Source: a bacterium (GTDB lineage Bacteria > Patescibacteriota > Patescibacteriia > UBA1558 > GWA2-36-10). From it: DNA of 64,000 bases. A program made the position numbers and the translations under genes. Of this stretch, positions 21,294-60,401 are shown piece after piece. The notes below the pieces were generated by a model, which saw only the letters and a list, made by a program, of their open reading frames with translations, searched no databases and was not told the DNA's origin. The stretch is from NCBI GenBank assembly GCA_018653315.1, contig JABIAL010000016.1, positions 3,433-67,432 of the forward strand, in the 5' to 3' direction. The first letter of the stretch is position 1, and every line of letters begins with the position of its first letter.

Positions 21294-23132
21294 ATGTATT
21301 TTACCAGACGAAATAATAACCGGTATTTAATTAGTAATTTTCGTATTAATATCCTACAGTGGGTTATTTTTTTGTTAGTTATGTCCATTATTGGGCGTCT
21401 TTTTTATTTACAAATTTTACAACACGATAAATATACGCAAATAGCAGCTAGACAACATCAGGCCATAGAGAATATTTTACCAGAAAGAGGAGAGATTTTT
21501 GCCTTAACTAATAATAAGCAAGATAGCGGATATTATCCTTTGGCAATTAATCAGATTACTTATGAGGTTTATGCCAATCCAACAGAAATAATCCGACCAC
21601 AAAATATTACAGATATTTTGGTAGAGGTTTTAGAGCTTGATTCTGTCTTCGACTCCGAGGTCGCTCAGACTCGAGGAGAACTTATTTTAGATAAATTAAA
21701 AAAAGGCAATGACAAATATGAAGGAATAAAAAAGAATGTTACGGAAAGTCAGGTTAAAAATTTGGAAGAAAAATTAGCTGTACTTATTGATGATATTAAT
21801 ATTAATAAATTAGAAAAAGATAAAGTTTATACAGCTGGCATTCATTGGAACAAAGAAATATTGCGATATTATCCAGACAAAGAAATTGGTGCACATATTT
21901 TGGGATTTTTAGGTTATGATCAAGATGGTGTTAATAGAGTTGGTAAATATGGCGTAGAAGGATTTTGGCAGGAAGAATTAGCAGGCACTGGTAGCCAAAT
22001 GATCGCCGATCGAGCTGGCGGAGGTCGTTTGTTGCCATTTTCTAGTTTACAAGCATATGCCAAAGATGGTGCGGATTTGGTTTTAACCATTGATCGCACT
22101 GTTCAATACCAGGCCTGTAAGTCATTGGAAAAAGCAGTGGCTTTGTATGATGCAGAAGGTGGTAGTGTGCTCATCATGGAAACTGACACCGGAGCTATTC
22201 GAGCGATGTGCACTTTCCCTAGTTTTGATCCTAATCAATATAATCAGGTAGAAACGGTTGATGTATATAATAATCAAGCAGTCTATCATGCTTATGAACC
22301 GGGATCAGTGATGAAAGCTGTAGCTATGGCTATTGCTATTGATACTGGTAAAGTAACAGCAGATACTATTTATGAAGATAAGGGTGAAATAAAATTTGCC
22401 GGTGGTTTTACTGTTAGAAATTCAGACCGCAAGGCTCATGGTATGGTCGATATGACAGAAGTATTAGCTGCCTCTTTGAATACGGGTGTTATTTTTGCTA
22501 CTCAAGATATTAAAAATAAAATATACGAAAATTATATGGAGAAATTTGGTTTTGGCCAAATAACTGGTTTATCAATTTCTCAAGAAAGCAAAGGAGATAT
22601 TTTCTCTTTGTCTAAACGAGGTGATACATATAAAGCCACTGCTTCTTATGGTCAAGGTATTACAGCTACACCTTTGCAAATGTTAAATTCTTTCAATGCT
22701 TTAGCTAATCGTGGTAATTTAGTGCAACCGTATTTAGTTGAGCAAGTAAAATTTAGTAATGGTAAAATCGATGGTGTTGAGCCAAAAATTATTCGCAAGG
22801 TAGTAAGTGAAAGTACGGCAGCTACCTTAGCAGCTATGTTGGTACAAGTGGTAGATAGTGGCCATGCTGGTAAGGCAGCTGTGCCTGGATATTATGTGGC
22901 TGGTAAAACAGGAACTGCTCAAGTAGCCGATCCAGAAACAAAAGGATATTCAATAGATAAGACTATTCATAATTTTATTGGTTTTGCACCAGTGGAGAAT
23001 CCAAAATTTACTATGATCACCAAGTTAGATTTTCCAACAGCAGCTAGATTTTCAGCTGATACAGCTGCGCCATTATTTGGCGAAATTGCTAAATTTCTGC
23101 TAGAATATTACCAGATTCCACCAAATCGTTAG
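21294..23132 (+). CDS. ftsI: penicillin-binding protein (FtsI/PBP2-type D,D-transpeptidase)
   Basis: N-terminal TM segment, then SxxK (SVMK), SxN (SLNTG) and KTG (KTGTA) motifs. Confidence 0.85.
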   Translation: MYFTRRNNNRYLISNFRINILQWVIFLLVMSIIGRLFYLQILQHDKYTQIAARQHQAIENILPERGEIFALTNNKQDSGYYPLAINQITYEVYANPTEIIRPQNITDILVEVLELDSVFDSEVAQTRGELILDKLKKGNDKYEGIKKNVTESQVKNLEEKLAVLIDDININKLEKDKVYTAGIHWNKEILRYYPDKEIGAHILGFLGYDQDGVNRVGKYGVEGFWQEELAGTGSQMIADRAGGGRLLPFSSLQAYAKDGADLVLTIDRTVQYQACKSLEKAVALYDAEGGSVLIMETDTGAIRAMCTFPSFDPNQYNQVETVDVYNNQAVYHAYEPGSVMKAVAMAIAIDTGKVTADTIYEDKGEIKFAGGFTVRNSDRKAHGMVDMTEVLAASLNTGVIFATQDIKNKIYENYMEKFGFGQITGLSISQESKGDIFSLSKRGDTYKATASYGQGITATPLQMLNSFNALANRGNLVQPYLVEQVKFSNGKIDGVEPKIIRKVVSESTAATLAAMLVQVVDSGHAGKAAVPGYYVAGKTGTAQVADPETKGYSIDKTIHNFIGFAPVENPKFTMITKLDFPTAARFSADTAAPLFGEIAKFLLEYYQIPPNR

Positions 23133-24395: not shown

Positions 24396-24495
24396 TTGAC
24401 TTTTAGTAGTTTTTTTGTTAAAAATATTCACTCAAGGTCCCTCCGCCTTCGCTAAGGCTTCGGCGAGATAGGGCACTTAGTATGATTTAAATTTA

Positions 24496-24570: not shown

Positions 24571-24640
24571 CTCGACTTCGCTCGTGGTCTTCGACCATAA
24601 AAATTTAGTGTCCTGAGCGAGTGAAACGAGTCGAAGGGCA
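24571..24640 (+). repeat. GC-rich tRNA 3'-trailer element: ctcgacttcgctcg ... gtcctgagcgagtgaaacgagtcgaagggc
   Basis: A member of a recurring motif pair (CTTCGACT.CGCTCAG and inverted GTCCTGAGCG..AGTCGAAGGGC) found immediately 3' of five tRNAs in this window. Confidence 0.6.
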
Positions 24641-24665
24641 AACAGCTATTGTAACTGTTTTTTAA
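24639..24665 (+). terminator. intrinsic terminator after tRNA-Glu
   Basis: aaacag-ctattgtaa-ctgttt followed by ttt. Confidence 0.5.
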
Positions 24666-35485: not shown

Positions 35486-35592
35486 GTCTTAAACGTGTTA
35501 TGCAATGCTTTATCAGATTGTTATAGGCTGTTGATCAGCTTAGTTACTGATCAAATCTGATTTTTGCCGGCATTACTGCGGCGCTCGTGTGT

Positions 35593-35658
35593 TTATTTGG
35601 CTTTGTTTGTCGTGGCGTCGAAACGCTGGGTGTTGATCGAAGGGCTAAACACAATCAT
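35593..35658 (-). other. 21-codon ORF with a perfect SD (AAGGAGG-6-ATG) inside a GC-rich repeat-containing region; possible leader peptide or spurious
   Basis: MIVFSPSINTQRFDATTNKAK. It overlaps a copy of the ..cgaaacg..tcgaagggc.aaaca repeat. Confidence 0.2.
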
Positions 35659-35769
35659 AAGCAGCCTCCTTAGAGTTAGCTTCCATTTGCCATTAGACAG
35701 GGCCGGACAGATGTCCGCCGAAAGTACGTTTATGTTCATATCTTAATATATATTTATTATTTTGTAAAT

Positions 35770-35799
35770 AGAAAATAAAAAACAAGGCTTTAACCTTGT
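35770..35799 (-). terminator. terminator of the tRNA-Lys transcription unit
   Basis: The minus strand reads acaagg-ttaaag-ccttgt followed by ttttttatttt. Confidence 0.5.
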
Positions 35800-35913
35800 G
35801 TGTAGATGATGTGTGTCCTTCGATTCCTTCTCGTTATTCTCCGAAGTCACTCAGGACAAGTTTCTCCAAGCTGAAGCGGCTCGACTGAGCTCGCCGTAGT
35901 CCTTGTCGAAGCT

Positions 35914-36009: not shown

Positions 36010-36038
36010 ATTATAGGGTATTTTAGCTTAATTGTCAA
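36010..36038 (-). promoter_or_regulatory. consensus sigma70 promoter (TTGACA-17-TATAAT) driving tRNA-Lys
   Basis: Minus-strand ttgaca (plus 36033-36038) and tataat (plus 36010-36015) with a 17-nt spacer. Confidence 0.6.
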
Positions 36039-36082
36039 AGGGGGTTCAAGGGGGATGTGCCCCCTTGGAACAAAAAATAAAA

Positions 36083-45404: not shown

Positions 45405-45448
45405 AAAACCCCGCCCTGAGCATAGTCGAAGGGCGGGGTTTTTATTTT
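45405..45448 (+). terminator. intrinsic terminator whose loop carries the GTCCTGAGC..AGTCGAAGGGC repeat core
   Basis: aaaaccccgccct-gagcatagtcga-agggcggggtttt followed by tatttt. Confidence 0.7.
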
Positions 45449-48360: not shown

Positions 48361-48395
48361 TTGACTCTTCGACTACGCTCAGAGTCTGCGCTAGC

Positions 48396-48630: not shown

Positions 48631-48713
48631 TCCTTCGACTCCGCTCAGGATGACAAAATTCCTTGTATTTTTCTCTGATTTTAGGTATTATTTAATAAAT
48701 TATTATAAAAATT

Positions 48714-50003: not shown

Positions 50004-50126
50004 GATAACTCGCTTCGGCGAGTTGACGCCGAGATAGCTCCTGCCTACGCTACCGTGCTTCGCCATAGCGGCTACGCGACGGCAAGAAGCTTAGGCAAGG
50101 CAGGCAGTTGGCGGGGGATAATTTTT

Positions 50127-57767: not shown

Positions 57768-58655
57768 ATGTTTAATATTGTATTTACAATTTTAATCATT
57801 GCCTCGCTTATATTTATTATTTGGTTAATAATTCAAAAATTACCAAAATTAATAAATATCAATGTAGCTAATTTGCCACATTTTCAAGTGAAGCAAAAAA
57901 AAGAAGATATTCTAAAGACTCGTATTAAAAGAGATTTAGTAAAGGTGTTTTCTAGTTGGCGACATATTTCATTACCGGCTCGTGATAGAGTTTTTGATTG
58001 GTTCAAAAATAATTATAGTAAACTAAAAGAATTAGAAAAAGATTTACGTCGTCGTAGTTTGCAACAATTTAGTTCAAGCCTTGATAAATCACAGACAGTT
58101 GATGAATTGTTATTAGAGGCAAAAAACGCTATTAATAACGAAGAGTACGATAAGGCAGAAAATTTATTATTAGAAGTTTTGGCAATTGACCAATACAGTA
58201 TAGAATCTTATAAAATATTAGCAGAGGTTTATCGAGATAAAAAAGAATACGAGCAAGCTAAAGAAACTTTGCAATATTTATTAAAGTTAACCCACAATGA
58301 AGATGCAGGAGTTTTTACTTCTCTAGCAGAGCTAGCACATACTCGTGGTAATCTAAAGCAGGCTGAAGATGAATATTTGCGTTCTATATCTTTGGCTGAG
58401 GATAATTATCTTAATTTTTTATCATTAGCAGAAGTATATATAGAGTTAGATGATCAAGAAAGTGCTTTAGAATCAGCTCAAAGAGCATTGTCGTTAGCTC
58501 CAAATAACCCTAAGGTTCTTGACTTTTTGATAAATATCAGTATAATTATTCAAGATAAAGAACTAGCCAAGAAGTATTTAGGTAGATTGAAAGAGGTAAA
58601 TCCAGAGAATCAGAAGATAGCTCATTTTATAGAGAATATTGATAAATTACATTAA
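57768..58655 (+). CDS. TPR-repeat protein with N-terminal TM anchor
   Basis: TM helix IVFTILIIASLIFIIWLI followed by several 34-aa TPR-like repeats (A...Y....G....A...Y). Confidence 0.6.
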   Translation: MFNIVFTILIIASLIFIIWLIIQKLPKLININVANLPHFQVKQKKEDILKTRIKRDLVKVFSSWRHISLPARDRVFDWFKNNYSKLKELEKDLRRRSLQQFSSSLDKSQTVDELLLEAKNAINNEEYDKAENLLLEVLAIDQYSIESYKILAEVYRDKKEYEQAKETLQYLLKLTHNEDAGVFTSLAELAHTRGNLKQAEDEYLRSISLAEDNYLNFLSLAEVYIELDDQESALESAQRALSLAPNNPKVLDFLINISIIIQDKELAKKYLGRLKEVNPENQKIAHFIENIDKLH

Positions 58656-58676
58656 TCATAATACAATTATATTGTG

Positions 58677-58712
58677 AGTTGGCTAGTGTTTTAGTCAACT
58701 TTTATTTTTTAC
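58677..58712 (+). terminator. intrinsic terminator
   Basis: gagttggct-agtgttt-agtcaactt (with g.u pairs) followed by ttatttttt. Confidence 0.5.
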
Positions 58713-58713
58713 A

Positions 58714-58819
58714 TGGGTCTGGTATCCTTCGGCGTTGCTCAGGATTACCGGACAATAATTTTTATATGGGTCTGGTATCCTTCGGCGTTGCTCAGGATTA
58801 CCGGACAATAATTTTTATA
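58714..58819 (+). repeat. two tandem 53-nt direct repeats whose 5' ends mimic the tRNA-Tyr 5' end (pseudo-tRNA fragments plus duplicated leader/promoter)
   Basis: tgggtctggtatccttcggcgttgctcaggattaccggacaataatttttata occurs at 58714 and 58767. A third phase begins at 58820 with the genuine tRNA-Tyr (gggtcggtaccgaagcgg). Confidence 0.7.
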
Positions 58820-58820
58820 T

Positions 58821-58906
58821 GGGTCGGTACCGAAGCGGTCAAACGGGGCAGACTGTAAATCTGCTGGCTTTCGCCTTCGGGGGTTCGAATCCCTCCCGGC
58901 CCACCA
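58821..58906 (+). tRNA. tRNA-Tyr (anticodon GUA), type II with long variable arm, CCA encoded
   Basis: Close to canonical bacterial tRNA-Tyr: ...ccgaagcggtcaaacggggcagacTGTAaatctgc..., long variable arm, T-loop ttcgaat, acceptor gggtcgg/ccggccc. Confidence 0.85.
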
Positions 58907-59049
58907 CTCGATTCGCTTTTTGCTTCGCAAAAGCTCACTCGTGGTCGCCGGTGCTTGATAGCACCTTTGACCTTTCTTTTTAAAGAATCGAGTGTCCCGA
59001 GCGAACGAAGAGAGTCGAGGGACATTCAAATAGGATAAAAAGAAAAGCA

Positions 59050-59301
59050 ATGAAGAAATACTATATTTATCTAGCTAGATGTAATGATCAAACCCTCTAT
59101 ACGGGATACACAAGTAATTTAATACAAAGAGAGGCTAAGCACAATGCAGGAGAAGGTGCGAAATACACCAGGGCTAGACGTCCAATACGAATTATTTATT
59201 CTGAGAAATTTAATACAATAAGCGAGGCCATGATAAGAGAATGCCAAATAAAGAGCTGGACAAAATTGAAGAAAGAAAAATTAATTAAGAAACAACCATA
59301 A
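59050..59301 (+). CDS. GIY-YIG nuclease-family protein (UPF0213-like, 83 aa)
   Basis: YYIYLARCNDQTLYTGYTSNLIQREAKHN contains the GIY...YIG motifs and the catalytic Arg/Glu pattern. Confidence 0.8.
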   Translation: MKKYYIYLARCNDQTLYTGYTSNLIQREAKHNAGEGAKYTRARRPIRIIYSEKFNTISEAMIRECQIKSWTKLKKEKLIKKQP

Positions 59302-59306
59302 TCTGT

Positions 59307-59381
<75 letters not shown>

Positions 59382-59487
59382 TTCGACTGCGTTTTACTCC
59401 ATAAAACTCCGCTCATGGCCGTTGGCCACTTACTATAACATTTTATATATATCAAAGTCGAATGTCCTGAGCGTAGCCGAAGGGCGT
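59382..59487 (+). repeat. tRNA 3'-trailer element: ttcgactgcg...ctccgctcatgg ... agtcgaatgtcctgagcgtagccgaagggcg
   Basis: Same motif pair as after tRNA-Glu, tRNA-Tyr, tRNA-Asn and tRNA-Lys. Confidence 0.6.
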
Positions 59488-59496
59488 TACAATAAC

Positions 59497-59517
59497 CAGC
59501 CGAAAGGCTGTTTTTTT
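59497..59517 (+). terminator. intrinsic terminator (GNRA-loop hairpin)
   Basis: cagcc-gaaa-ggctg followed by ttttttt. Confidence 0.7.
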
Positions 59518-59543
59518 ATACCTAAACATGCTATTTTGATGAT

Positions 59544-60401
59544 ATGCCAGAATTACCAGAAGTAGAAACAATTAGGCAAGATCTTAGTCAAAAGATTATT
59601 AATAAAAAGATTAAGTTAGTTGAAGTTCATAAAACTAACATGATTAAAGATGTTAAATCTAAGTTTATTAATAATTTAAAAAATAATCAGATAATCAGAG
59701 CTGATCGAATCGGCAAGTTGTTGATTTTTGATTTGGCTTCTGGAAATCATTTATTAGTTCATTTGAGAATGACTGGACAGCTTATCTATGTCTTAAAAAA
59801 TGATGTTACAGCTGGAGGACATGATTGGCCACAAGTAGATAGTCTACCAAATAAATATTCACATATTATTTTTCATTTTAGTGATAATTCTAAACTATTT
59901 TTCAATGATTTACGGCAGTTTGGTTATATGCAAATAGTAAATAGCCAAACTAAAGATGAAATTAAAAAGAAATTTGGTATTGAGCCATTACAAAGTGATT
60001 TTACTTGGAATAATTTTAAAAAATTATTAGCTAAGAAAAAAAGCATTTTAAAACTATTTTTATTAAATCAGCAAATGATTTCTGGTATTGGTAATATCTA
60101 TGCCGATGAAATTTGTTTTCGAGCTGGTGTGTTGCCAGACAGAAGATTGAATACCTTAACTGAGACTGAAAAGAAAAAAATATTTCAAACTTGCCAGTAT
60201 ATTATTAAAAAAGCGATAGAAAAAAGAGGAACAACTTTTAGTAATTACGTAGATAGCGATGCTAAAAGTGGAAACTTTTCAGATCAGCTCAAAGTTTATG
60301 GCAGAGGAGGAGAAAGATGTTTAAGTTGTCGACAAGAAATTATAAAAAAGGTAAGATTAGGAGGTAGGGGAACAACTTTTTGTCCTAATTGTCAAAAATA
60401 A
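59544..60401 (+). CDS. mutM: formamidopyrimidine-DNA glycosylase
   Basis: MPELPEVETIRQDL N-terminus (catalytic Pro2/Glu3), H2TH domain, C4 zinc finger CLSC...CPNC. Confidence 0.9.
   Translation: MPELPEVETIRQDLSQKIINKKIKLVEVHKTNMIKDVKSKFINNLKNNQIIRADRIGKLLIFDLASGNHLLVHLRMTGQLIYVLKNDVTAGGHDWPQVDSLPNKYSHIIFHFSDNSKLFFNDLRQFGYMQIVNSQTKDEIKKKFGIEPLQSDFTWNNFKKLLAKKKSILKLFLLNQQMISGIGNIYADEICFRAGVLPDRRLNTLTETEKKKIFQTCQYIIKKAIEKRGTTFSNYVDSDAKSGNFSDQLKVYGRGGERCLSCRQEIIKKVRLGGRGTTFCPNCQK

What the first reader, a model, noticed from the sequence alone, without database searches (positions are those of the whole stretch)
24571..24640. Conserved GC-rich element that starts immediately after the CCA of five of the six tRNAs
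The sequence right after the encoded CCA begins with a (C)TTCGA(C/T)T...CGCTCAG-like motif. This holds for tRNA-Glu (24571 ctcgacttcgctcg), tRNA-Asn (48631 tccttcgactccgctcagg), tRNA-Tyr (58907 ctcgattcgc...tcactcg), tRNA-Thr(GGU) (59382 ttcgactgcg...ctccgctcatgg) and tRNA-Lys (minus strand, 35913 downward: agcttcgacaaggactacggcgagctcag).
An inverted partner, GTCCTGAGCG..AGTCGAAGG(GC), follows 40-80 nt later in each case:
- 24611 tcctgagcgagtgaaacgagtcgaagggc
- 59464 gtcctgagcgtagccgaagggcg
- 58985 gaatcgagtgtcccgagcgaacgaagagagtcgaggg
- the minus-strand equivalent near 35839-35871
The two halves can pair (ttcgact/agtcgaa; ctcgattc/gaatcgag), so each tRNA carries a long 3'-trailer stem-loop of conserved sequence. 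These elements are GC-rich outliers in a 30% GC genome. Only tRNA-Thr(CGU) lacks one.
Possible roles are lineage-specific tRNA 3'-processing or termination signals, REP/BIME-like repeats that home next to tRNAs, or recombination sites. The distribution is too regular for chance.
Basis: seen in the sequence. Interest (0 to 1): 0.7.

Follow-up and report, generated by a model that had tools for sequence, protein, structure and literature searches.

The report
Mobile hairpin repeats behind tRNA genes
The GC-rich sequences that begin right after five tRNA genes are copies of a gain-and-loss hairpin repeat that, in several bacterial phyla, accompanies a tiny GIY-YIG nuclease gene; they are not a conserved tRNA-processing signal, and their exact docking at tRNA 3' ends appears not to have been described.

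Summary
Five of six tRNAs are followed from +1 after CCA by a GC-rich element with a TTCGAC...GCTCA core. Four of them have an inverted partner, GTCCYGAGCG...YCGARGG, 40-90 nt downstream.

The core is far above chance: 6 copies against 0.01 expected. It is not tRNA-specific. It also sits in a terminator loop, upstream of tRNA-Tyr, and as an in-frame insert in a PBP gene.

Syntenic loci from close relatives (Komeilibacteria-like CPR) lack the element at every orthologous tRNA in at least one genome. One variant follows tRNA-Thr here but tRNA-Tyr in a relative. So these are insertions, not a conserved processing signal.

The same 20-25-mer occurs in metagenome contigs of 31-68% GC. It has no Rfam match.

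It flanks small single-domain GIY-YIG genes here (59050-59301), in other CPR contigs, and on Sphingomonas and Methylobacterium plasmids. In three CPR contigs such genes lie among repeated partial tRNA 3' ends.

The closest known system is the Ssn nuclease with its SRM hairpin repeats (Chenal 2025). The published SRM pattern does not match, and that paper's main text never mentions tRNA.

Verdict: a new variant of a known kind, with a tRNA-3'-end insertion preference. Interest is moderate to high.

The parts
24571..24597 (+). tRNA-Glu trailer, module A. Forward core CTCGACTTCGCTCG starts at +1 after CCA, followed by the small hairpin TGGTC-TTC-GACCA. TGGT is complementary to the tRNA's ACCA.
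24610..24639 (+). tRNA-Glu trailer, module B. Reverse core GTCCTGAGCG-AGTGAAACGA-GTCGAAGGGC. It is followed by an intrinsic-terminator-like hairpin at 24641-24663.
   Evidence: The whole 69-nt A-B unit is absent from the orthologous site in L221.
35866..35913 (-). tRNA-Lys trailer, module A. AGC-TTCGAC...GCTCA...GCTTGG, with CCAAGC/GCTTGG as the closing stem.
   Evidence: Absent in L221 and L222.
35815..35857 (-). tRNA-Lys trailer, module B. GTCCTGAGTG...AATCGAAGGAC (expanded reverse core). A terminator-like hairpin follows at 35777-35799.
48631..48654 (+). Solo hairpin directly after the tRNA-Asn CCA: TCC-TTCGACTCCGCTCA-GGA-TGAC. The reverse complement reads GTCATCC TGAGCGGAGTCGAA GGA.
   Evidence: Absent in L081/L082 and L083.
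48363..48386 (+). Solo hairpin GACTC-TTCGACTACGCTCA-GAGTC, after the terminator of the upstream gene and about 170 nt upstream of tRNA-Asn.
   Evidence: I saw no counterpart in the L081/L083 intergenic sequences printed.
45405..45442 (+). Terminator hairpin whose loop is the reverse core: AAAACCCCGCCC-TGAGCATAGTCGAA-GGGCGGGGTTTT. Not next to a tRNA.
   Evidence: The orthologous terminator in L081 has a plain TTTTC loop.
58713..58818 (+). Two tandem 53-bp units upstream of tRNA-Tyr. Each unit holds a copy of the leader plus the first ~12 nt of tRNA-Tyr (GGGTCTGGTATCC), the forward core TTCGGCGTTGCTCA, and a complementary arm GGATTACCGGAC.
   Evidence: There is one unit in L081, one in L084 whose arms match that genome's own tRNA-Tyr 5' end, and none in L083, L085 or L086.
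58907..58972 (+). tRNA-Tyr trailer, module A. CTCGATTCGC-[hairpin]-CTCACTCG, then the TGGTCGCC...GACC hairpin.
58985..59023 (+). tRNA-Tyr trailer. GAATCGAGT pairs with the start of the trailer. Module B follows: GTCCCGAGCGAACGAAGAGAGTCGAGGGAC, ending 26 nt before the GIY-YIG start codon.
59050..59301 (+). 83-aa single-domain GIY-YIG nuclease gene between tRNA-Tyr and tRNA-Thr(GGU), with element copies on both sides within 170 nt.
   Evidence: Pfam PF01541, 5.9e-18. Best PDB matches are the UPF0213 proteins BH0048 and EF2693. Orthologues at the same position in L081, L083, L084 and L086.
59382..59428 (+). tRNA-Thr(GGU) trailer, module A. TTCGACTGCG-[hairpin]-TCCGCTCATGG, then the hairpin TGGCC-GTT-GGCCA.
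59456..59485 (+). tRNA-Thr(GGU) trailer. AGTCGAAT pairs with ATTCGACT at the start of the trailer. Module B follows: GTCCTGAGCGTAGCCGAAGGGC. A terminator-like hairpin lies at 59497-59520.
   Evidence: The whole trailer is absent in L081, L083, L084, L085 and L086. An identical module B follows tRNA-Tyr in L084.
21643..21675 (+). Probable in-frame copy inside the penicillin-binding-protein gene 21294-23132. GTC-TTCGAC-TCCGAGG-TCGCTCA-GAC adds about 11 residues.
   Evidence: weak profile hits; 11-residue gap in the L221 orthologue at this position.

Best explanation
The trailers are copies of a dispersed, GC-rich hairpin repeat that acts at the DNA level. They are not a tRNA-specific RNA signal.

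The unit is a ~14-25 nt oriented core. It reads YCC-TTCGRC-NNN-GCTCA-GGR on one strand and (GTC)CC-TGAGC-NNN-GYCGAA-GG on the other. It occurs in two forms:
- alone, closed by a short stem whose sequence differs from copy to copy;
- as an inverted pair: module A right after the CCA and module B 40-90 nt downstream.

Copies are gained and lost on the time scale that separates close Komeilibacteria-like genomes.

I propose they are the cognate repeats of the small single-domain GIY-YIG nuclease encoded between tRNA-Tyr and tRNA-Thr. This would parallel the Ssn nuclease and its SRM/NTS hairpin repeats. There the nuclease binds the folded repeat on one strand of single-stranded DNA and cuts just upstream, and the gene is typically bracketed by repeats.

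I further propose that in this lineage cutting and repair are focused on tRNA gene 3' ends. The forward core resembles a tRNA T-loop (TTCGA), so new copies end up abutting the CCA.

Shown:
- the repeat family, its excess over chance and its non-tRNA copies;
- filled versus empty orthologous sites with no target-site duplication;
- occurrence across phyla;
- recurrent physical association with small GIY-YIG genes and with partial tRNA 3'-end copies.

Inferred:
- that this GIY-YIG protein binds or cuts these repeats;
- that the substrate is single-stranded DNA;
- the reason for the tRNA preference.
For: 1. Repeat family. There are 6 core copies against 0.01 expected. A profile from unrelated contigs finds 7 window copies. 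Aligned A-B trailers share four conserved blocks.

2. Insertion polymorphism at orthologous sites in syntenic relatives (AsnRS 78-91% and DnaB 82-83% identical):
- Glu and Lys trailers are absent in L221. In L222 the Lys trailer is absent, and tRNA-Glu carries a different solo hairpin downstream plus two B-like copies upstream.
- The Asn hairpin is absent in L081/L083.
- The Thr(GGU) trailer is absent in five relatives.
- The Tyr trailer is full in L084, a remnant in L081, and absent in L083/L085/L086.
- L083 keeps the same terminator, CAGCCGAAAGGCTG, six bases after the CCA.
- The L081 terminator has a plain loop where the window has the core.
- Module B of the window's Thr trailer is identical to module B of L084's Tyr trailer.
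- A probable in-frame copy sits in a PBP gene and is missing from the orthologue.

3. Not an RNA family and not lineage-restricted. Rfam gives nothing. The consensus extends to YCCTTCGRCTNCGCTCAGGRYARGC.

4. Link to GIY-YIG.
- The window gene is bracketed by copies.
- tRNA | A-B element | GIY-YIG recurs in L084, in L188 after tRNA-Gln, and in L174.
- L188, L174 and L212 show two to three direct copies of a tRNA 3' end around GIY-YIG genes.
- L209 has GIY-YIG 130 nt after tRNA-Ile.
- The Sphingomonas plasmid locus L214 has a forward/reverse core pair upstream, one copy overlapping the 3' end of its GIY-YIG gene, and two more within 1 kb.
- Methylobacterium L217 has a CATCCTGAGG...CCTCGAAGGAGG variant on both sides.

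5. Precedent.
- Ssn is a single-domain GIY-YIG protein of about 94 aa. It is a site-specific ssDNA nuclease bound to oriented hairpin repeats, and 71% of homologues have repeats in their flanks (PMC11893778).
- The phage GIY-YIG enzyme SegB cuts tRNA genes at RAWTSGAAC. I read this as matching the antisense T-loop. SegB drives tandem amplification of tRNA plus segB (PMC13096335).
Against: - The published SRM search pattern finds nothing in the window or in any related locus.
- The window protein looks like the UPF0213/YazA type (sequence GAKYTRARRP). From my own knowledge that is CDD family cd10456, not the Ssn family cd10448. I could not run CDD or obtain a reference Ssn sequence.
- Orthologous GIY-YIG genes in L083 and L086 have no element nearby.
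- Seven of the further homologue loci I inspected showed no core: L210, L211, L215, L216, L218, L219 and L220. L210 and L211 carry the same protein.
- The gene has kept one position across the clade, so it is not itself recently mobile here.
- Nearest-neighbour folding gives the isolated core little stability. The hairpin with tandem G.A pairs is my inference.
- Only 2 of the 120 metagenome contigs carrying the core also held a GIY-YIG ORF. The contigs are short, and a dispersed repeat is not expected to sit next to its enzyme.
- The metagenome pattern required CC before TTCG, so it could not detect CCA|TTCGAC junctions. How widespread the tRNA docking is remains unknown.
Confidence: 0.55

Rival explanations
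1. The elements are a REP/MITE-like palindromic repeat spread by some other enzyme, such as a RAYT/IS200-like HUH transposase or host recombination, encoded outside the window. The neighbouring GIY-YIG gene is incidental: it simply also lives in tRNA operons.
For: GIY-YIG orthologues without elements exist in L083 and L086. The GIY-YIG gene is positionally stable. The core occurs twice inside IS91-family (HUH Y2) transposase genes on a Trichlorobacter plasmid. Most metagenome contigs carrying the core have no GIY-YIG ORF. There is no target-site duplication, as with ssDNA transposons.
Against: No transposase or integrase was found among 19 window ORFs scanned. The same core brackets small GIY-YIG genes in CPR, Sphingomonas and Methylobacterium, which is hard to ascribe to chance. 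REPs have conserved stems and a GTAG head, which is not seen here.
Confidence: 0.22
2. The trailers are functional RNA. A 3'-trailer stem-loop pairs with the CCA end and guides endonucleolytic 3' processing, protects the pre-tRNA, or assists termination.
For: All five lie on the tRNA strand between the CCA and a terminator-like hairpin or the next gene. The right arm of module A is complementary to each tRNA's own 3' end, with compensatory differences: ACCA/TGGT, GCCA/TGGC in L174, AGCCG/CGGCT in L188. The Tyr and Thr trailers fold better than shuffles.
Against: Orthologous tRNAs in close relatives lack them. Long-range pairing uses a different register in each copy. The same core sits in a protein-gene terminator loop, upstream of a tRNA, inside a CDS, and in unrelated phyla away from tRNAs. 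No Rfam family matches. The Asn and Glu folds are not better than shuffles.
Confidence: 0.1
3. The elements are scars (att-site remnants) of integrase-mediated integration of genomic islands into tRNA genes.
For: tRNA 3' ends are classic integration sites. L086 has a tyrosine integrase right after tRNA-Thr(GGU). L222 has an HTH_17 excisionase-like gene after tRNA-Lys. Partial tRNA 3'-end repeats occur in L174, L188 and L212.
Against: The window trailers carry no duplicate of the tRNA 3' end. The intervals between tRNA-end repeats in L174 and L188 (about 300-470 bp) hold only a small GIY-YIG gene and no integrase. In L212 the repeats are about 75-145 bp apart and lie upstream of the gene. The conserved core is unrelated to the individual tRNA sequences and also occurs far from tRNAs.
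Confidence: 0.04

Closest known systems
Ssn single-domain GIY-YIG ssDNA nucleases with their SRM/NTS hairpin repeats (Chenal et al. 2025, Nat Commun 16:2388; PMC11893778)
   Same: A very small GIY-YIG-only protein. Oriented hairpin repeats of 20-50 nt, mostly intergenic, in many copies. The gene is bracketed by repeats. Occurrence spans several phyla. Some copies carry the same GTCAT head and AT tail (window 48631-48654 reverse-complemented: GTCAT-CC...GG-AT, against NTS CGTCAT-TCC...GGA-ATC).
   Different: The published SRM pattern gives 0 hits. Here the conserved part is the interior (TGAGCG-NAG-YCGAA) and the closing stem varies; in NTS the stem is conserved. The window protein looks UPF0213/YazA-like rather than cd10448, which I could not test. 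The paper's main text does not mention tRNA (0 occurrences). No biochemistry exists for this variant.
REP/BIME elements with RAYT transposases (enterobacteria, Pseudomonas; from my own knowledge and as discussed in PMC11893778)
   Same: Short extragenic palindromes, often in inverted pairs, frequently between a gene end and a terminator. Thought to act as ssDNA hairpins. No target-site duplication.
   Different: No GTAG head. Stems are not conserved. No Y1/HUH transposase was seen in the window. REPs are species-specific, whereas this core is shared across phyla.
SegB, the free-standing GIY-YIG homing endonuclease of T-even phages (PMC13096335)
   Same: A GIY-YIG gene embedded in a tRNA gene cluster. 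It cleaves within tRNA genes at RAWTSGAAC, which by my reading matches the antisense T-loop and resembles the ...AGTCGAAGG / AATCGAAGG half of the core. It produces tandem amplification of tRNA plus endonuclease segments, as in the L174 array.
   Different: SegB is a larger, multi-domain dsDNA endonuclease in phages (size and domain content from my own knowledge). No dispersed hairpin repeat is described for it. Homology beyond the catalytic domain was not tested.
Rickettsia palindromic elements (RPE) and GC-rich palindromes of fungal mitochondria (yeast GC clusters; Neurospora PstI palindromes that flank tRNA genes). From my own knowledge, not checked here.
   Same: GC-rich mobile palindromes in AT-rich genomes. 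RPEs insert in frame into protein genes, as near 21645 here. The Neurospora palindromes flank tRNA genes.
   Different: Unrelated sequences and hosts. No associated GIY-YIG-repeat pairing has been shown for them. This is an analogy only.

Membership tests
Ssn/SRM system (PMC11893778) | A single-domain GIY-YIG protein of about 80-110 aa is encoded nearby | tested here: met
   The 83-aa ORF at 59050-59301 matches only PF01541 (5.9e-18). The catalytic Y, Y, G, R, H and E columns are invariant in the alignment with six related proteins.
Ssn/SRM system (PMC11893778) | [quoted passage not shown] | not testable with these tools
   No CDD search and no reference SsnA sequence were available. The best solved relatives are UPF0213 BH0048 and EF2693 (1e-16). 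The motif-flanked proteins of L214 and L188 hit the same two entries. NCBIfam gave no hit.
Ssn/SRM system (PMC11893778) | The gene is flanked by repeats on both sides within 500 bp | tested here: met
   Module B ends 26 nt upstream of the start codon. The A-B element begins 81 nt after the stop codon, beyond tRNA-Thr. Cores within 600 nt are listed.
Ssn/SRM system (PMC11893778) | The repeats match the published degenerate SRM sequence HGTCWYN(0-2)YYVSBRHN(0-5)WNVSBRGN(0-2)RNCYNB | tested here: not met
   The pattern matches the NTS controls but gives 0 hits in the window, L081, L083-L086, L174, L188, L207-L209, L212, L214 and L215.
Ssn/SRM system (PMC11893778) | An oriented repeat: a conserved non-palindromic head (GTC..) followed by a hairpin | tested here: inconclusive
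   GTCC/GTCAT precedes CCTGAGCG in module B, in the Asn copy and in the metagenome logo. The isolated core is not predicted to fold stably.
Ssn/SRM system (PMC11893778) | The nuclease cuts ssDNA, not dsDNA or RNA, next to the repeat | not testable with these tools
   This needs biochemistry.
REP/BIME with RAYT | A conserved imperfect palindrome with a GTAG head, and a Y1 transposase gene flanked by REPs | tested here: not met
   There is no GTAG head and the stems differ between copies. No transposase was found among the 19 ORFs scanned. The rest of the genome was not available.
MITE (DDE-transposase dependent) | Terminal inverted repeats plus a target-site duplication | tested here: not met
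   Modules A and B are inverted copies of the core. However, none of five filled/empty comparisons shows a target-site duplication.
Conserved cis-acting tRNA trailer RNA | Present at orthologous tRNAs of related genomes, with a structure supported by covariation | tested here: not met
   Every one of the five sites is empty in at least one close relative. The pairing register differs between copies. No Rfam family matches.
Integrase att-site scar | A direct repeat of the tRNA 3' end bounding an inserted segment | tested here: not met
   No tRNA 3'-end duplicate was seen on reading the sequence after the window trailers. Such repeats do occur in L174, L188 and L212, but the intervals between them hold at most a GIY-YIG gene.

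The most novel reading that the evidence does not exclude
A second, cross-phylum class of nuclease-associated hairpin repeat exists, with core CC-TGAGCG-NAG-YCGAA-GG and possibly closed by tandem G.A pairs. It is paired with UPF0213/YazA-like as well as Ssn-like single-domain GIY-YIG nucleases. In CPR bacteria the repeat plus the gene form a minimal mobile or recombinogenic unit that targets tRNA genes, in the T-loop or just after the CCA. Its traces are ORF-less A-B trailers, partial tRNA duplications and in-frame inserts in proteins. This would be direct genomic evidence for the open proposal that repeat-ssn-repeat units are, or were, mobile elements.
Probability: 0.3. Interest if true: 0.75.

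Novelty: new variant of a known kind. Interest (0 to 1): 0.6.

Why it matters
Small GIY-YIG-only proteins (UPF0213, Ssn) are among the most widespread uncharacterised nucleases. The first biochemical function, site-specific ssDNA cutting at hairpin repeats, was reported only in 2025. Whether the gene-plus-repeat unit is mobile was left open there.

This locus and its relatives offer three things:
- a distinct and very widely distributed repeat core that the published search pattern misses;
- filled and empty orthologous sites that date gains and losses within one CPR clade;
- an exact docking point at tRNA 3' ends, with partial tRNA duplications around the nuclease genes.

Together these give testable predictions about target choice and mobility. 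They may also point to additional sequence specificities for ssDNA-cutting tools.

There is a practical warning for annotation too. These GC-rich trailers, and the spurious or extended ORFs they create, should not be read as tRNA-processing signals or as protein-coding sequence.

Tried and rejected
- Known RNA family. Rfam gave only the six tRNAs in the whole window at gathering score, nothing in 58600-59600 at E <= 10, and nothing in 13 metagenome loci rich in the motif. Hammerhead-like and tRNA-like readings of module B were therefore dropped.
- Canonical SRM. The published pattern gives 0 hits.
- Literature by sequence. Six 13-16-mers of the core found no relevant paper. Two keyword searches on GIY-YIG, tRNA and repeats returned mostly mitochondrial genome papers.
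- Synteny through the AspRS-like gene in species-level genomes. The relatives were too distant and the contigs too short to be useful. The AsnRS and DnaB homologue route worked instead.
- General tRNA adjacency of the core in metagenomes. Only 3 of 141 listed core copies lie within 300 nt of a tRNA, and none at a 3' end. The search pattern (CC before TTCG) excludes CCA|TTCGAC junctions, so this test is uninformative for that question.
- Stable fold of the isolated core. The nearest-neighbour model does not support one.
- Mobile-element genes in the window. Pfam scans of 19 ORFs found no transposase or integrase. The remaining ORFs were not scanned.
- P0005 locus. No DNA was available.
Full report
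**1. What is in the window**

The window has about 33% G+C. ARAGORN and Rfam agree on six tRNA genes.

Its proteins are closest to Candidate Phyla Radiation genomes labelled Komeilibacteria, Parcubacteria or Nomurabacteria.

Five tRNAs are followed from the first base after the encoded CCA by a GC-rich element: Glu, Lys, Asn, Tyr and Thr-GGU.

**2. Anatomy**

The common denominator is an oriented core. It reads YCC-TTCGRC-NNN-GCTCA-GGR on one strand and CC-TGAGC-NNN-GYCGAA-GG, often preceded by GTC, on the other.

It appears in two forms.

- Solo hairpins. The core is closed by a short stem whose sequence differs from copy to copy.
  - after tRNA-Asn: 48631-48654
  - 48363-48386
  - the loop of a protein-gene terminator: 45405-45442
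  - two tandem 53-bp units upstream of tRNA-Tyr: 58713-58818
- A-B units after tRNA-Glu, Lys, Tyr and Thr(GGU).
  - Module A is a forward core right after the CCA, often with a small hairpin inserted at the NNN position. It ends in TGG(T/C), which is complementary to the tRNA's own 3' end.
  - An AT-rich spacer follows.
  - Module B is a reverse core, GTCCYGAGCG...YCGARGGRC.
  - Three units are followed by an intrinsic-terminator-like hairpin. The Tyr unit is followed by a GIY-YIG gene.

An alignment of the four window units with three from other contigs shows four conserved blocks. These are CCA-TTCGACT-CGC, CGCTCATGG, TGTCCTGAGCG and AGTCGAAGGGC.

**3. More than chance, and not tRNA-specific**

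- The 18-nt pattern with up to two mismatches gives 6 hits against 0.01 expected.
- GTCCTGAGCG with up to one mismatch gives 5 against 0.62.
- A profile built only from unrelated metagenome copies finds seven window copies at E between 1.7e-6 and 0.025.
- Three insertion sites are not at a tRNA 3' end. One is not near any tRNA.
- A further motif-like hairpin, GTC-TTCGAC-TCCGAGG-TCGCTCA-GAC near 21645, lies inside the penicillin-binding-protein gene. It coincides with an 11-residue insertion relative to the orthologue in L221.

**4. The decisive comparison: orthologous sites**

Homologues of the window's AsnRS and DnaB led to syntenic loci from relatives. The tRNAs, neighbouring genes and even terminators are conserved there. 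The elements are not.

| Site | Window | Relatives |
|---|---|---|
| tRNA-Glu | 69-nt A-B unit | L221: terminator directly after CCA. L222: a different solo hairpin (TCCCTCGACTTTTCTCGGGATGAC) plus two B-like copies upstream of the tRNA |
| tRNA-Lys | A-B unit | Empty in L221 and L222 |
| tRNA-Asn | 24-nt hairpin | Empty in L081/L082 and L083 |
| tRNA-Thr(GGU) | A-B unit | Empty in L081, L083, L084, L085 and L086. L083 has the same terminator, CAGCCGAAAGGCTG, six bases after CCA |
| tRNA-Tyr | A-B unit | Full unit in L084. Short remnant (CTCGATTCG) in L081. Empty in L083, L085 and L086 |
| Terminator 45405-45442 | Core in the loop | L081: ordinary TTTTC loop |

- Module B of the L084 Tyr unit is identical to module B of the window's Thr unit. 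The same variant therefore sits behind different tRNAs in different genomes.
- None of the filled/empty comparisons shows a target-site duplication.
- These facts argue for repeated insertion and loss at the DNA level. They argue against a conserved tRNA-processing signal.

**5. Beyond this lineage**

Rfam has no matching family.

- Flank statistics extend the consensus to YCCTTCGRCTNCGCTCAGGRYARGC.
- Module B of the window is indistinguishable from copies in 50-66% G+C contigs.
- Variation at second codon positions, such as GAC/GGC and TNC, shows that the conservation is not at the protein level.
- Tandem arrays with periods of 24 and 27 nt occur in L108 and L133.
- On a Trichlorobacter plasmid the motif lies in frame, twice, inside IS91-family transposase genes.

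The pattern required CC before TTCG. The scan therefore could not detect CCA|TTCGAC junctions, and it says nothing about how general the tRNA docking is.

**6. The link to a small GIY-YIG nuclease**

Between tRNA-Tyr and tRNA-Thr(GGU) lies an 83-aa ORF that is nothing but a GIY-YIG domain. It has element copies on both sides. Its position is conserved in L081, L083, L084 and L086.

The same architecture, tRNA | A-B unit | GIY-YIG, recurs in unrelated contigs:

- L188. It follows tRNA-Gln. A reverse core fused to a second copy of the tRNA-Gln 3' end lies behind the gene.
- L174. Three exact 20-nt copies of a tRNA-Asn 3' end, further anticodon-arm and D-arm fragments, and three GIY-YIG ORFs form an array. 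One tRNA-end copy is fused to CCCTGAGCGAAGTCGAAGG. Another is followed by a full A-B unit.

Other homologues from CPR-like contigs also sit next to tRNA sequence:

- L209: 130 nt behind tRNA-Ile.
- L212/L213: behind three copies of a tRNA 3' end.
- L208: behind a CCACCA|TTCGACTCG...TTCATGG remnant.

Outside the CPR:

- The GIY-YIG gene of a Sphingomonas plasmid (L214) has a forward/reverse core pair upstream, one copy overlapping its 3' end, and two more within 1 kb.
- A Methylobacterium homologue (L217) has a CATCCTGAGG...CCTCGAAGGAGG variant on both sides.

Counter-examples exist. L083 and L086 have the gene without elements. L210/L211, L215, L216, L218, L219 and L220 show no core.

**7. What is known**

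Chenal et al. (PMC11893778) showed the following.

- SsnA of Neisseria meningitidis is a 94-aa GIY-YIG-only protein and a site-specific ssDNA nuclease.
- It binds the oriented hairpin repeat NTS (CGTCATTCCCGCGMAVGCGGGAATCYRG) and cuts upstream of it.
- 71% of homologues have such repeats (SRMs) in their flanks.
- The authors note that the repeat-gene-repeat layout resembles an insertion sequence. They leave mobility open.
- The word tRNA does not occur in the main text.

The present elements share the logic and, in some copies, the GTCAT head and AT tail. They also differ.

- They fail the published SRM pattern completely.
- Here the interior is conserved and the closing stem varies.
- The window protein's closest solved relatives are UPF0213 proteins, as are those of L214 and L188.
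- The seven aligned proteins fall into a YazA-like group (window, L084, L209, L212) and a second group (L188, L174, L214). All keep the catalytic residues. Whether either group is cd10448 could not be tested.

A second relevant precedent is phage SegB (PMC13096335). It is a GIY-YIG endonuclease embedded in tRNA clusters. It cuts tRNA genes at RAWTSGAAC, which I read as matching the antisense T-loop. It also drives tandem amplification of tRNA plus segB. The forward core's TTCGAC(T) resembles a T-loop, and the L174 array resembles such amplification. This is resemblance, not proof.

**8. Most likely mechanism (inference)**

The core, folded on one strand of transiently single-stranded DNA, is the recognition element of the small GIY-YIG nuclease. 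Nicking and repair near T-loop-like sequences of tRNA genes seed new copies at the tRNA 3' end. ORF-less A-B units are non-autonomous or decayed copies.

Because they sit between the CCA and the terminator, they are probably transcribed with the tRNA and may incidentally affect pre-tRNA handling.

The complementarity of module A's right arm to each tRNA's own 3' end is unexplained. The pairs are ACCA/TGGT, GCCA/TGGC, AGCCG/CGGCT and CCAAGC/GCTTGG. It could reflect selection for a hairpin that includes the CCA. It could also reflect an insertion mechanism that copies the target in inverted form.

**9. Verdict**

- The elements are best filed as a new variant of the recently described nuclease-associated hairpin repeats.
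- The insertion preference for tRNA 3' ends is, as far as the searched literature shows, undescribed.
- Confidence in the DNA-level insertional-repeat reading is high.
- Confidence that this particular GIY-YIG protein acts on them is moderate.

Noticed in passing
window 58713-58818: An exact 53-bp tandem duplication upstream of tRNA-Tyr. Each unit starts with a copy of the leader and the first ~12 nt of the tRNA, followed by a core hairpin. L081 and L084 have one unit. In L084 the arms match that genome's own tRNA-Tyr 5' end.
   Followed up: partly
window 50020-50122: A roughly 95-nt GC-rich insert between the AsnRS terminator hairpin and tRNA-Thr(CGU). It contains CCTGCCT...AGGCAGG and is unlike the main core. 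L081 and L083 have only the terminator hairpin there.
   Followed up: partly
window 21643-21675: The PBP gene 21294-23132 carries an in-frame insertion of about 11 residues, encoded by a motif-like hairpin. It is absent from the L221 orthologue. This is reminiscent of Rickettsia palindromic elements inside genes.
   Followed up: partly
window 35540-35740 (minus strand, downstream of the tRNA-Lys terminator): A GC-rich stretch in a 540-nt gap. It holds a 21-codon ORF behind a strong AAGGAGG site. At the same place L222 has a GC-rich HTH_17 excisionase-like gene and L221 a GC-rich stretch that reads as a short ORF. This may be a remnant of an element integrated at tRNA-Lys.
   Followed up: no
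L086 20210-21103: A tyrosine integrase gene immediately after tRNA-Thr(GGU), followed by a DNA methyltransferase gene. In the window the Fpg gene sits there instead. This indicates an island integrated at that tRNA.
   Followed up: no
L207 4005-4020, 4818-4833, 7272-7287 (Trichlorobacter lovleyi plasmid): The core lies in frame inside IS91-family (Y2 HUH) transposase genes, giving ...PALSVVEG... and ...TSTSLS... in the protein.
   Followed up: partly
window 24428-24476 and 36033-36072: GC-rich hairpins upstream of tRNA-Glu (GGTCCCTCCGCCTTCGCTAAGGCTTCGGCGAGATAGGGCAC) and tRNA-Lys (CAAGGGGGCACATCCCCCTTG...). The second resembles a hairpin upstream of tRNA-Tyr in L083 and of tRNA-Lys in L221.
   Followed up: no
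L108 4794-4883 and L133 4269-4367: Head-to-tail arrays of the core with 24-nt and 27-nt periods in unrelated metagenome contigs.
   Followed up: no
L003 4673-4830: The predicted tRNA-Asn is followed by a second T-arm and acceptor end about 80 nt downstream (...GGTTCAAATCCTGCCCTGGCAGCCA). This suggests an interrupted or intron-containing tRNA gene.
   Followed up: no
L214 1784-1815: The annotated Sphingomonas GIY-YIG protein ends in ...ALRLRSGRTRE, which is translation of a repeat copy. Such repeats extend or create ORFs in annotations.
   Followed up: no
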